NCBI GenBank assembly: GCA_963727505.1
Contig: CAVSGP010000009.1
Coordinates: 576,001 to 640,000, forward strand
Reading direction: 5' to 3'
DNA length: 64,000 bases
From: an uncultured Trueperaceae bacterium
Lineage (GTDB): Bacteria > Deinococcota > Deinococci > Deinococcales > Trueperaceae
In this document: piece after piece, positions 38,201-41,200 of the stretch
Layout of the letters: every line of letters begins with the position of its first letter
Position numbering within the stretch: the first letter of the stretch is position 1
Position numbers: made by a program

Positions 38201-41200
38201 CAGCCCTGCCACATCCATTTCGCGCAGTTCTACGGCTTCGTGGTCGGGTTCATCCTGCTGTTCATCGTCCTCTGGGCGTTGCGGCGGAGCCGCGCGCCGG
38301 GCTACGCCTTCTGGCAGTTCGCCCTGTGGTACTCGGTGCTGCGCAGCGTGCTCGAAGAGCCCTTCCGCGACAACCCCCTGTACTGGAAGGTCTACGACAA
38401 CATGCAGGCGGGGATCGGCTTCTTCACGCTCACGCAGCTCGTCAGCGTCGTCATCGTGGTCGTGGCCATCGCCATGCTCGTACGCATCCGTCAGCGGGAA
38501 CGTCGGGGCCGGCTTGCCGGCGCCGCGGAGCGCTGAGGGTGGGGGAAGCCGGCCTGAGCGTGGTGGTGCTCGCCGCCGGGCAGGGCACACGCATGCGCTC
38601 GTCGCTGCCCAAGGTGCTCCACGAGGCGGCCGGCAAGCCGCTGCTGGAACACGTGCTGAACGCTGCCGGGGCGCTCCGGCCCGCTCGGAAGGTGGTCGTG
38701 GTCGGGCACGGGTCCGAGGCCGTGCGGGCGCGGTTCGCCGACGCCGGCGTCACCTTCGTCGAGCAGGCCGAGCAGCGCGGCACCGGGCACGCGTTGCTGT
38801 GCACGCGCGAGGCGCTCGCCGAAGCGTCGGGACCGCTGCTGGTGCTCTACGGCGACCAGCCCCTGGTCCACCCCGCCACCCTCGAGGGGCTGGTCGAGGA
38901 GCACCGCAGGCACGGTGGGGCAGTCCTGCTGACCTACGAGGTCGCCGACCCGTTCGGACTCGGACGGGTGGTGCGCGCGCCGGACGGCAGCGTGCTGCGA
39001 GTGGTGGAGGAGAAGGACGCCTCGGCGGAGGAGCGGGCGATCCACGAGGTCTACCCGGGCGCCATCGTCTTCGATGAGGCGGCCTTCGATGTCGCCTCCG
39101 GACTGAGCGCCGACAACGCCGCCGGCGAGTACTACCTCACCGACATGGTGGCCCTCTACCGCCGCGGCGGCCGTGGCCTGCACGCGTTCCGAGGCCACGA
39201 CGAGATGCGCGAGCTGATCGGTGTCAACACGCGGGGCGAGCTGGCGCGGGCCGAGGCCCTGCTTCGGCGCCGCGCGCGCGAGCACTGGCTGACGGCGGGC
39301 GTCACCATGCATGCGCCGGAATCGACCTTCGTCGACGACGCGGTGACGCTGGCCCCCGACGTGGTGCTCGAGCCCGGCGTGCTGCTGCGCGGCGCCACCA
39401 GGGTGGGCCGCGGCGCCCGCGTCGGGGCCTACGCCGTGCTGGACGGCTGCACGGTGGCTCCCGGGGCGACCGTGCCGCCGCACACGGTGGCGCGGGGACG
39501 GGCGTTCGAGGCGCCCTGAGGCGTCGGCGCGCTCAGTCTTCGGCGCCGGGGGCCCCGCCGCCGTCGGGCAGGTGGCTGGTGTAGGCCTCGTCATGCGGGC
39601 GCTCGAGGGTCTCGAGCGTGAGGTCGTGCAATCGCAGGCGAGCGCTCTCGGTGTAGAAGCCGACCCGTCCCTCGCCGAAGCGCTCGTCGGCCAGCGTCAG
39701 GAGCACCGCGCCGTCGAGCGAGAACTCCAGGTAGGAGCCGTAGGCGAGCAAGACGAACGGGTGCGGGTCGCCGTGCGCGACGTAGAAGTTCGACTGCAGG
39801 GGGATGTAGTCGAAGGCCTCCTCGACGTCGCCTCCCGGATGCGCCGCCCAGGCACGGAGCTGGGCGATGCCCTTGTGCAGGTCGAGACTGAGATAGTAGC
39901 CGTCCCCGTCGTCGCTCAGACGCAGCACCAGGCCGATCTTGCCGCTGCCGTCCATGTGCATCTCGCCGCGCAACCGGAAGTCGCGGTGCACGCCCGGCAC
40001 CAGGAACGTCTCGAAGCCGCTGTCGCAGCCGAAGCGCGCCACGCCGGACGTCGCCTCGCTGACGGCCGACGCGCGGCCGAACAGCGGTTCCAGCGGGATC
40101 AGCTCGGCCGCCGGGAGCGTGGCGCGCACGCGCGCGTCGAAGCCCGAGAAGCTCGCCAGATAGAGCTCCCCGTCGGGCGCTGCGCGCAGCTCCTTGGGCG
40201 GTGGCAATAGATGCTGACCGTCGGTCACGCGCCCCTTGAAGAAGAAGTTCCACACGAGCCAACGGCCGTCGTCCCGGCATAGGCGCGCGGCGTAGTTGCC
40301 CTGGGGGAGCAGCACGTTGTCCGAGAAGTTGAGGTAGGGCCCCTCGAAGGCATCGGCGTACCAGTAGTGGACCTTCACGTCCTCCCGGATCGAGCCGAGC
40401 AGGTACCAGCGGCCGCCGAGTTGCACCGGCACAGGCACCTCGATGTCGTCGTAGCGGCTGGGATGGAACAGTGGTTGCCGCGGTTCGAAGTGGTCCGGCG
40501 CGGTCTCTTCGAACAGGGCCACCGCCCCCCGCCGGATGACCGGGCCGTGGTCCACCCGCGCGGCCGCCAGCAGGTAGCCGGTGCCGTCGATGCGCGCGTA
40601 GTAGGGGTCGCGGAAGCTGACCCAGTGCCGTCCCTGTTCGAGGGTGTGTTCGTACGGCGCGTCCTCGAGCTCCAGCGGGAAGCTTCCGGACGCGTCCTTC
40701 TCCCAGGTGAAGAGGTCGTCGGAGCGCGCTAGGCCGATGCGTTGCACCCGCCCGCGGTTGCGCATGCTGAGACCGGTGTAGAACATGCGCCAGCCGGCCT
40801 CCCTGCCGGGGTCGGGCGAGATGCTCATGGTCCACAGCATGTCGTCGTCCCAGCCGCCGGGGTGGCTGATGAACAGCGCGTTCTCGACCCGTTCCCAGGA
40901 CAGGCCGTCCTCGGACACCGCGTGCGCGATGTAGTCGTGGTTGGGCAGCACCAGATGGAACAGGTGGTAGAGCCCACCGGTGCGAACGACCTCGACGTCG
41001 CCGATCTCGCTGACGCGGAAGCCGAAGCCGGCGTACACCCTTCAGCCCCCCTGGCGCAGGCTCACGAGCGCTCCCGCCCGTCGCCGCCGACGTCGACGAA
41101 TCCCTGGTGCTCGAGCCCCTCCAGCACACCGGTGGCGAGCTCGGACTCGGCGAAATAGATGCCGCGCCGGCCCTTGAGCCGTTCCAGCTCGGGCGCGTAG

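What a model noticed while it worked through the whole genome (the two positions that open the first line are those of the whole stretch)
38539..39519. Family-wide split of GlmU: truncated uridyltransferase plus stand-alone archaeal-type GlcN-1-P acetyltransferase
The only glmU (g02499, 326 aa) ends after the first coils of the beta-helix and lacks the acetyltransferase. A separate gene beside slpA, g00236 (C2:179071-179745), encodes a lone beta-helix closest to the acetyltransferase half of archaeal ST0452. The pair replaces bifunctional GlmU throughout Trueperaceae.
Evidence so far: TIGR01173 matches only up to position 312-327 of 452 in 19 of 19 Trueperaceae and full length in 12 of 12 other Deinococcales. 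g00236 orthologue in 22 of 24 other Trueperaceae and 0 of 16 others. Best solved relatives 5z09/2ggo at E 1e-33 over 190 residues, against 1e-12 for bacterial GlmU.
(Added by a program. Inside this text positions count along the whole contig: contig position 576,001 is position 1 of the stretch shown here. "Call 12" and the like, gene names such as g00115 and contig names such as C1 are that model's own, and its searches are not shown. The text may have been shortened before it was handed on; [...] marks where a part breaks off. The agent that wrote the report below was given it as the finding of a first reader that could run no searches.)

Follow-up and report, generated by a model that had tools for sequence, protein, structure and literature searches.

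The report
Shortened GlmU with borrowed acetyltransferase
These bacteria have lost half of the two-step enzyme that makes the basic cell-wall sugar, and they most likely make up for it with a small separate enzyme of different ancestry, a swap that has also happened independently in other bacterial groups and that I found no assay of.

Summary
Confirmed and extended. The window's glmU (38539-39519, 326 aa) stops before the first acetyltransferase residue, and no other C-terminal half exists in the genome. Full-length GlmU: 0 of 101 family genomes against 85 of 86 other Deinococcota. The 224-aa partner on C2: 97 of 101 against 0 of 86. It keeps all nine E. coli acetyltransferase-site residues checked; glmS and glmM are intact. 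Correction: this is not a fission. The native gene was truncated in place (synteny, tree). The partner belongs to a widespread stand-alone bacterial family of the ST0452 type that often sits beside glmM, glmS or a truncated glmU. In Anaerolineae, ST0452-type helices occur in 0 of 75 genomes with full GlmU and 19 of 26 without. A shorter class (~245 aa) arose repeatedly. Activity is inferred, not assayed. Half-GlmUs are already noted in a 2026 preprint, and this scan found the same pairing before on other DNA (Nitrospinota, gut Clostridia). Verdict: new variant of a known kind.

The parts
38539..39519 (+). Truncated glmU (P0001, 326 aa): GlcNAc-1-P uridyltransferase with linker helix and a beta-helix stub; ends at about E. 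coli residue 323, before R333
38539..39234 (+). Uridyltransferase domain (residues 1-232). R18, K25, D105, E154, E195, N227 equivalents kept; E. coli Y139 is L141, N169 is Y172, T170 is P173
39235..39297 (+). Linker alpha-helix (residues about 233-253; E. coli L230-A250)
   Evidence: boundaries from PMC10087520 section 4.2
39298..39516 (+). Left-handed beta-helix stub (residues about 254-326) with no acetyltransferase-site residue; its first coils are as conserved in the family as the catalytic domain (57% versus 52% mean pairwise identity)
37631..38536 (+). lgt, ending 2 bases before the glmU start; marks the ancestral glmU locus (directly upstream in 35 of 40 family loci and 17 of 18 other Deinococcales loci)
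37058..37537 (+). DUF456 membrane protein, conserved upstream of lgt-glmU (42 of 58 loci, in and outside the family)
39533..41038 (-). GH32-like gene converging 13 bases after the glmU stop, leaving no room for a lost half; not part of the system. The partner gene (P0002) lies outside the window at C2:179071-179745(-); glmS is at C9:705590-707440 and glmM at C4:620971-622275

Best explanation
UDP-GlcNAc is made by four separate enzymes instead of three. GlmS and GlmM give glucosamine-1-phosphate. The stand-alone 224-aa protein on C2 (P0002), probably a homotrimeric left-handed beta-helix, transfers acetyl from acetyl-CoA to it with His121 as the catalytic residue. The truncated GlmU (P0001) then uridylylates GlcNAc-1-P for MurA and LpxA. 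History: an ancestor of the family acquired a member of a mobile stand-alone family descended from ST0452-type bifunctional enzymes. The native acetyltransferase half became redundant and was deleted at the native lgt-glmU locus, leaving a conserved stub (probably for trimer stability) that several sub-lineages later lost as well. Shown: anatomy, distribution, residues, synteny, trees. Inferred: both activities, the trimer, the role of the stub and the order of events.
For: Gap in the pathway: glmS and glmM over cut-off in 60 of 61 family genomes each; murA and lpxA present here; no full-length GlmU in 101. Partner in 97 of 101 family genomes and 0 of 86 others. P0002 R91, E107, K109, H121, Y124, N135, A138, N144, K163 align to E. 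coli R333, E349, K351, H363, Y366, N377, A380, N386, K392, unchanged in 15 of 15 family rows. H121 aligns to ST0452 H308, reported essential for GlcN-1-P acetylation (PMC4909775). Model pLDDT 93.9; best fold match ST0452, TM 0.80, rmsd 1.6-1.9 A. Relatives in other phyla lie beside glmM (8 of 80 loci), glmS (3), yvcK/glmR (1) or overlap a truncated glmU (1). Only 1 of those 80 genomes has a near full-length GlmU; 17 have a truncated one with a stop. Anaerolineae: 0 of 75 against 19 of 26. The truncated GlmU nests in the Deinococcota clade (97/97). Isolated GlmU domains work alone (PMC4358021, PMC4619583).
Against: No assay. The trimer could not be modelled. Four Anaerolineae genomes have a stop-terminated truncated GlmU and no partner found (G343, G347, G304, G268), so truncation does not always come with this partner, or these assemblies lack it. 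70 of the 80 relative loci show no hexosamine-synthesis gene nearby, and the family's own partner locus (slpA, lipid kinase, rhomboid, HPF) is uninformative. In this genome the conserved N169 is Tyr; Ser at this position impairs S. aureus GlmU (preprint section read), and no NagU is found here. The partner is missing from 4 of 101 genomes (77-92% complete). A GNAT-type bypass was not searched for.
Confidence: 0.85

Rival explanations
1. P0002 acetylates a different amino sugar (for example galactosamine-1-phosphate for an envelope glycan) as its main job, and GlcNAc-1-P comes from elsewhere.
For: ST0452 acetylates both GlcN-1-P and GalN-1-P. Y311 and N331, reported to matter only for the GalN activity, are kept as Y124 and N144. 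The gene sits near slpA in 28 of 30 loci.
Against: Those two residues are also in E. coli GlmU (Y366, N386), so they are not diagnostic. A side-pathway enzyme would not be expected to exclude full-length GlmU (0 of 75, 0 of 86) or to sit beside glmM and glmS in several phyla. A side activity on GalN-1-P is compatible with the best explanation.
Confidence: 0.06
2. The family uses a eukaryote-like order: a GNAT acetylates GlcN-6-P, the phosphomutase moves the phosphate on GlcNAc-6-P, and truncated GlmU or NagU finishes.
For: 22 of 101 family genomes carry an AGX1/UAP1-like uridyltransferase. GlmU-N domains fused to a phosphomutase occur in other lineages, including three Anaerolineae that lack the partner.
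Against: It leaves the near-universal, residue-complete P0002 unexplained. The mutase scores over the GlmM cut-off in 60 of 61 genomes. A GNA1-like gene was not searched for.
Confidence: 0.04
3. GlcNAc auxotrophy with salvage, as in Capnocytophaga canimorsus: the monofunctional uridyltransferase works on scavenged GlcNAc.
For: Precedent for a monofunctional uridyltransferase with loss of acetylation (PMC4358021).
Against: C. canimorsus lacks GlmM; here glmS and glmM are kept in 60 of 61 genomes each, which makes little sense without an acetylation step.
Confidence: 0.02
4. P0002 is the acetyltransferase, but in this genome the truncated GlmU is a weak or re-tuned uridyltransferase, and another nucleotidyltransferase (the RmlA-long protein at C6:37214-38149) carries much of the flux.
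For: N169 is Tyr here and in 2 other sampled loci (7 of 41 are not Asn); Y139 is changed in 39 of 41. The preprint shows S169 impairs S. aureus GlmU.
Against: R18, K25, D105, E154, E195 and N227 are kept in 41 of 41. The C6 protein scores over the RmlA-long cut-off. No NagU in this genome, although the same search finds it elsewhere.
Confidence: 0.1
5. Sequencing or assembly artefact, or a recent pseudogene.
For: One genome of the same genus (G068) shows a frameshift inside glmU.
Against: An in-frame stop at the equivalent place in 39 of 40 fetched family loci, the 40th being at a contig end; single-contig genomes agree; catalytic residues are invariant.
Confidence: 0.005

Closest known systems
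Bifunctional bacterial GlmU (TIGR01173; E. coli P0123, PDB 1hv9, 2oi6; Deinococcus-type model PRK14358)
   Same: P0001 is its vertical descendant at the same lgt-glmU locus, with the uridyltransferase residues kept. P0002 carries the same acetyltransferase-site residues.
   Different: Two unlinked genes on different contigs. P0001 lacks about 130 C-terminal residues. P0002 is only about 30% identical to the E. coli half and has another ancestry.
Engineered E. coli GlmU-Tr331 (PDB 1fwy, 331 aa) and GlmU-del78
   Same: P0001 is a natural counterpart of Tr331, which keeps only uridyltransferase activity and works in vivo (PMC4358021, passages).
   Different: Natural and fixed across a family; a second natural class ends near residue 245.
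ST0452 of Sulfolobus tokodaii and archaeal-type GlmU (TIGR03992; PDB 5z09, 5z0a, 2ggo)
   Same: Best sequence and fold match of P0002 (E 1e-33; TM 0.80); H308, Y311 and N331 kept.
   Different: ST0452 is bifunctional (401 aa). P0002 has no nucleotidyltransferase domain, scores 168 against a cut-off of 292, and falls in a clade of stand-alone bacterial proteins.
Half-GlmUs in NagU-bearing bacteria (Fong et al., bioRxiv 10.64898/2026.06.23.733835)
   Same: Reports, from sequence only, C-half-only species (PVC), N-half-only species, and Wujia chipingensis with both halves on separate genes.
   Different: Its main text does not mention Truepera, Deinococcota, Chloroflexota, archaea or ST0452 and treats the halves as truncations of GlmU. 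Here the partner is shown to be of ST0452-type ancestry, and the pairing holds without NagU (79 of 101 genomes have no match).
GlmUCc of Capnocytophaga canimorsus (PMC4358021)
   Same: Monofunctional GlcNAc-1-P uridyltransferase in a bacterium.
   Different: There GlmM and acetylation are lost and the cell is a GlcNAc auxotroph; here glmS, glmM and a candidate acetyltransferase are kept.

Membership tests
Bifunctional bacterial GlmU (TIGR01173) - P0001 | N-terminal uridyltransferase domain with the L-x2-G-x-G-T-x-M-x4-P-K fingerprint and D105, E154, E195, N227 | tested here: met
   fingerprint from PMC10087520
Bifunctional bacterial GlmU (TIGR01173) - P0001 | Complete beta-helix acetyltransferase domain; score over the curated cut-off | tested here: not met
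   319 bits against 366.85; none of R333 to K392 present
Bifunctional bacterial GlmU (TIGR01173) - P0001 | Conserved sugar-binding Asn169 | tested here: not met
   Tyr172 in P0001; Asn in 34 of 41 family sequences
Bifunctional bacterial GlmU (TIGR01173) - P0001 | GlcNAc-1-P uridyltransferase activity | not testable with these tools
   needs an assay
Archaeal-type GlmU / ST0452 (TIGR03992) - P0002 | Beta-helix with the ST0452-type fold and H308, Y311, N331 | tested here: met
Archaeal-type GlmU / ST0452 (TIGR03992) - P0002 | Fused N-terminal sugar-1-phosphate nucleotidyltransferase; score over cut-off | tested here: not met
   224 aa, model positions 212-393 only, 168 against 292 bits; the one close longer hit (P0298) has no family match ahead of the beta-helix
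GlcN-1-P N-acetyltransferase (GlmU-C chemistry) - P0002 | Catalytic His plus substrate and CoA residues (E. coli R333, E349, K351, H363, Y366, N377, A380, N386, K392; roles other than the His are recalled) | tested here: met
   9 of 9 match; 15 of 15 family rows
GlcN-1-P N-acetyltransferase (GlmU-C chemistry) - P0002 | Homotrimer with active sites between subunits | not tested
GlcN-1-P N-acetyltransferase (GlmU-C chemistry) - P0002 | Acetyl-CoA-dependent acetylation of GlcN-1-P | not testable with these tools
   needs an assay
True gene fission of the native glmU | Both halves descend from the same ancestral gene | tested here: not met
   P0002 groups with ST0452-type proteins, apart from Deinococcota GlmU C-halves (support 1.0); best E against those halves 4.5e-14
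NagU plus GlmU-C system (Fong et al. 2026) | UAP1/AGX1-like uridyltransferase present | tested here: not met
   none in this genome (the search works); 22 of 101 family genomes have one

The most novel reading that the evidence does not exclude
The stand-alone ST0452-type family is a mobile, monofunctional amino-sugar-1-phosphate acetyltransferase that has repeatedly displaced the acetyltransferase half of an essential enzyme in many phyla (this part I put at about 0.7). Beyond that, it keeps ST0452's dual GlcN-1-P/GalN-1-P activity, and the family-wide remodelling of the truncated GlmU's sugar pocket (Y139 changed in 39 of 41, T170 to Pro in 34 of 41, N169 changed in 7 of 41) lets it accept GalNAc-1-P, giving these bacteria a direct route to UDP-GalNAc. 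That gain would be the reason the swap was selected.
Probability: 0.12. Interest if true: 0.75.

Novelty: new variant of a known kind. Interest (0 to 1): 0.5.

Why it matters
GlmU is taught as one essential bifunctional enzyme. If the reading holds, a whole bacterial family, and lineages in several other phyla, run the acetylation step with a small protein that no curated model names: it passes no NCBIfam cut-off, and sources label relatives 'hypothetical' or 'glucose-1-phosphate thymidylyltransferase'. It fills an apparent hole in cell-wall precursor synthesis in many genomes, so missing full-length glmU should not be read as GlcNAc auxotrophy. It gives a clean, replicated case of non-orthologous displacement of one domain followed by stepwise erosion. 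It is directly testable with one complementation and one assay.

Tried and rejected
Single-sequence structure prediction of P0001 was uninformative (pLDDT 44) and was not used. Read-through or a frameshifted second half was rejected: a convergent gene starts 13 bases downstream and no C-half exists in any frame. Other beta-helix proteins of the genome were rejected as the missing enzyme: LpxA and LpxD score over cut-off, the C15 protein best matches NeuD/PglB/VioB inside a polysaccharide cluster, and the C6 protein is RmlA-long. A fused form of the partner was not found: P0298 looks like an over-extended frame and the other long hits are at most 46% identical (weak evidence, only 8000 candidates scored). 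A direct archaeal donor is not supported: the nearest relatives are stand-alone bacterial proteins, and one sister-clade bifunctional is from Dehalogenimonas; no donor can be named. A single origin of the short class is rejected (AU p 0.00025; groups named from lengths, after a first tree had been seen). Fisher tests overstate significance because genomes are related and are not relied on. Primary papers on ST0452 and GlmU active-site residues were not held; two literature searches for the residues found nothing. PMC4803751 and PMC5814848 (passages) added nothing.
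Full report
OBSERVATION. The window is C9:576001-640000 of a 3.26-Mb, 97% complete genome. Positions 38539-39519(+) encode 326 residues (P0001), starting 2 bases after the stop of lgt and ending 13 bases before the end of a convergent GH32-like gene. TIGR01173 covers positions 2-327 of 452 and stays under its cut-off; it is the only strong match in the genome. Against E. coli GlmU the protein is 37% identical over 313 columns and ends near E. coli residue 323, before R333. It has the uridyltransferase domain, the linker helix and a short beta-helix stub, much like the engineered E. coli Tr331 (PDB 1fwy), which keeps uridyltransferase activity only (PMC4358021, passages). 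tblastn with seven GlmU C-halves finds only two weak hits in the genome: the C2 gene and a NeuD/PglB/VioB-like gene in a polysaccharide cluster on C15. The C2 gene (179071-179745, minus strand) encodes 224 residues (P0002).

DISTRIBUTION IN THE PHYLUM. Close homologues of P0002 are labelled Trueperaceae or Deinococcales by their sources, so I take family f1 to be Trueperaceae. In 101 f1 genomes from 36 genera, 0 have a TIGR01173 match over cut-off. By my count of that table, 92 have a glmU match at E<1e-49: 80 end at model position 306-330, 10 at 239-249, one (G034) is cut by a contig end and one (G068) is frameshifted. The other 9 are fragmented assemblies (73-92% complete) with no match or only a piece. 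I fetched 40 of these loci: 39 have an in-frame stop and one runs off its contig. Among 86 genomes of the three other families, 85 are over cut-off and the last (G173) is broken across two contig ends. P0002 has a match at E<=1e-20 in 97 of 101 f1 genomes (misses: G001, G051, G078, G087; 77-92% complete). In the 86 others the best match is E 4.5e-14, and nearly all listed hits fall in their own glmU. glmS and glmM are over cut-off in 60 of 61 f1 genomes each; murA, lpxA and lpxD are present here. These tallies include one unpublished genome, G033, as a single row; no claim depends on it.

THE PARTNER LOOKS LIKE A WORKING GlcN-1-P ACETYLTRANSFERASE. In a joint alignment P0002 R91, E107, K109, H121, Y124, N135, A138, N144 and K163 fall on E. 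coli R333, E349, K351, H363, Y366, N377, A380, N386 and K392, and all are unchanged in 15 of 15 family rows (also invariant in a separate 20-row alignment). That these residues bind GlcN-1-P and acetyl-CoA is recalled from the E. coli structures; I could not obtain those papers. H121 aligns with ST0452 H308, which a review reports as essential for both GlcN-1-P and GalN-1-P acetylation, with Y311 and N331 needed only for GalN-1-P (PMC4909775, passage). The predicted monomer (pLDDT 93.9) matches ST0452 best (TM 0.80, rmsd 1.6-1.9 A), against TM 0.39-0.60 for bacterial GlmUs. A trimer is required for this chemistry (PMC10087520, section 4.2); I could not test it.

IT IS A REPLACEMENT, NOT A FISSION. 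The truncated gene sits at the ancestral locus: lgt lies directly upstream in 35 of 40 family loci (two others lack upstream DNA) and 17 of 18 loci from other Deinococcales. In a maximum-likelihood tree of 68 N-terminal domains (22 of the 41 family sequences, 10 of 19 other Deinococcales) the family forms a clade (99/88) inside a Deinococcota clade (97/97). The partner has another history. Its best matches among 50%-identity representatives are mostly stand-alone proteins of about 205-245 residues; two that carry names are from Symbiobacteriaceae and Bipolaricaulia (10 looked up). In a FastTree tree of 150 beta-helix domains the stand-alone proteins, Trueperaceae included, form one group (0.92; two longer rows lie inside it), sister to about 400-residue ST0452-type bifunctional proteins (joint support 1.0) and apart from Deinococcota GlmU C-halves. 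No donor can be named. The partner's own locus is conserved (slpA within 1.5 kb in 28 of 30 loci, a divergent lipid kinase between them, then rhomboid and HPF) but says nothing about function.

INDEPENDENT EVIDENCE FROM OTHER PHYLA. Record titles include Verrucomicrobia, Chlamydiae, Anaerolineae, Bacillota, Actinomycetota, Bipolaricaulia, Elusimicrobia and Riflebacteria; some titles look wrong in the trees. R91, E107 and N144 and K163, which are outside the motif, are kept in 80 of 80 and K109 in 79. In 10 of 80 loci the gene lies within hexosamine-synthesis context: glmM in 8 (L133, L139, L148, L161, L164, L165, L168, L169), glmS in 3 (L104, L139, L148), the UDP-GlcNAc-binding YvcK in L104, and a truncated glmU overlapping the start codon in L113. 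A second adjacent pair is seen in G286. Of the 80 genomes, 19 have a TIGR01173 match at E<=1e-25: 1 near full-length (G226, a 10.2-Mb assembly), 17 truncated with a stop, 1 at a contig end; 61 have none (completeness not shown). Of four of the 61 tested, two have a NagU-like gene and two do not. As a within-clade control I searched 101 genomes of the class of G219 (Anaerolineae by record title): 75 have full-length GlmU, 14 only a shorter match, 12 none. An ST0452-type helix at E<=1e-30 occurs in 0 of the 75 and 19 of the 26: 11 stand-alone and 8 in long frames. Truncated and full-length Anaerolineae GlmUs are interleaved in one clade (97/97), and the tree needs at least 7 changes between full and truncated, so truncation recurred. 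Kinship makes the p-values too small.

RESULTS AGAINST. Six of the 14 Anaerolineae with a short GlmU have no partner at that threshold. One is a contig-end cut (G296), one has a weaker ST0452-type hit in a 506-residue frame (G309, E 1.7e-28), and four (G343, G347, G304, G268) have a real stop and no partner found. Three of the four carry a second GlmU-N-like domain in a long frame of the kind that, in L197, is fused to a phosphomutase. Five of the long-frame Anaerolineae hits lack several site residues. In P0001 the sugar pocket departs from the norm: Y139 is changed in 39 of 41 family sequences and N169 in 7 of 41 (Tyr here), while R18, K25, D105, E154, E195 and N227 are invariant. Ser at 169 impairs S. 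aureus GlmU (preprint section 11). This genome has no NagU, although 22 of 101 relatives do.

STEPWISE EROSION. The first coils of the stub are as conserved as the catalytic domain (57% against 52% mean pairwise identity), which suggests a retained structural role, probably trimerisation (inference). The short class, ending just after the linker helix, is not one clade (AU p 0.00025); a long and a short form are sisters within genus g6 (100/99). Both end points recur in other phyla.

MECHANISM. Fructose-6-P to GlcN-6-P (GlmS), to GlcN-1-P (GlmM), to GlcNAc-1-P (P0002, acetyl-CoA, His121), to UDP-GlcNAc (P0001). No fusion is needed: separated GlmU domains are each active (PMC4358021 and PMC4619583, passages). 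Shown here: anatomy, distribution, residues, synteny and trees. Inferred: the two activities, the trimer, and the order 'partner gained, then C-half lost'. Confidence 0.85.

WHAT IS KNOWN. Fong et al. (bioRxiv 10.64898/2026.06.23.733835; abstract, sections 11, 15, 16 and passages read) report from sequence that NagU-bearing bacteria may have only a C-half (PVC), only an N-half, or both on separate genes (Wujia chipingensis). Its main text does not name Truepera, Deinococcota, Chloroflexota, archaea or ST0452. Its figures, Extended Data and supplements were not visible to me and could include NagU-bearing Trueperaceae. Ten literature searches found no report on GlmU in this family and no assay of a stand-alone member, but the library lacks most subscription papers. 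This scan's own notes hold the same pairing on other DNA (Nitrospinota, e1-5158433; gut Clostridia, e1-5295525), seen after my own tests; they are unchecked and not counted as support.

VERDICT. A real, family-wide feature. P0001 is a GlmU orthologue that fails the bifunctional membership test. P0002 works like GlmU-C/ST0452-C but is a member of neither named family. New variant of a known kind. Interest 0.5: solid, broad and easy to test, but the chemistry is known and half-GlmUs have been noticed.

Noticed in passing
L001:8754-8993 (C2:178753-178992, minus): The rhomboid protease gene that follows the partner in most relatives is reduced to its last 80 or so residues here and in G095 and G068.
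   Followed up: partly
L199-L204; 22 of 101 family genomes: AGX1/UAP1-like (NagU-like) uridyltransferase in nine genera, including every sampled genome of the two mainly short-GlmU genera g24 and g35; absent here.
   Followed up: partly
L197:1587-3776 (G252) and 11 long frames in Anaerolineae: A GlmU-like nucleotidyltransferase domain fused to a complete phosphohexomutase (730 aa in L197; 736-846-aa frames elsewhere, fusion checked only in L197). Could be a GlcNAc-6-P to UDP-GlcNAc salvage enzyme.
   Followed up: partly
L003:2316-7642 (C9:310315-315641, minus): lpxD, lpxC-like, an oxidoreductase, fabZ-like, lpxA and a divergent lpxB-like gene in one cluster: early lipid A genes in a Deinococcota genome.
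   Followed up: partly
L161, L168, L169: GlmM with an extra 80-115-residue N-terminal segment that looks like a helix-turn-helix domain (by eye, not scanned), directly upstream of the stand-alone acetyltransferase.
   Followed up: no
window 39533-43308 (minus): Sucrose-phosphate synthase/phosphatase and a GH32-like gene lie downstream of glmU; the GH32 gene is seen in only 4 of 58 glmU loci.
   Followed up: no
G068:C3:604296-605266: glmU in two pieces at model position 113 in a genome of the same genus: frameshift or assembly error.
   Followed up: no
L193 (G253, titled Actinomycetota): GlmU of about 395 residues with a degenerate C-terminal part lacking the catalytic His: a possible intermediate stage of decay in a genome that has the partner beside glmM.
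   Followed up: partly
G197 and G255: Genomes with the stand-alone acetyltransferase but neither a GlmU match at E<=1e-25 nor a NagU match: the uridyltransferase is unidentified or unassembled.
   Followed up: no
G315, G330, G288, G328, G363, G292, G365, G333: Eight Anaerolineae with no bacterial GlmU match at E<=1e-40 but an ST0452-type helix in a long frame, probably bifunctional archaeal-type enzymes; five have altered site residues.
   Followed up: partly
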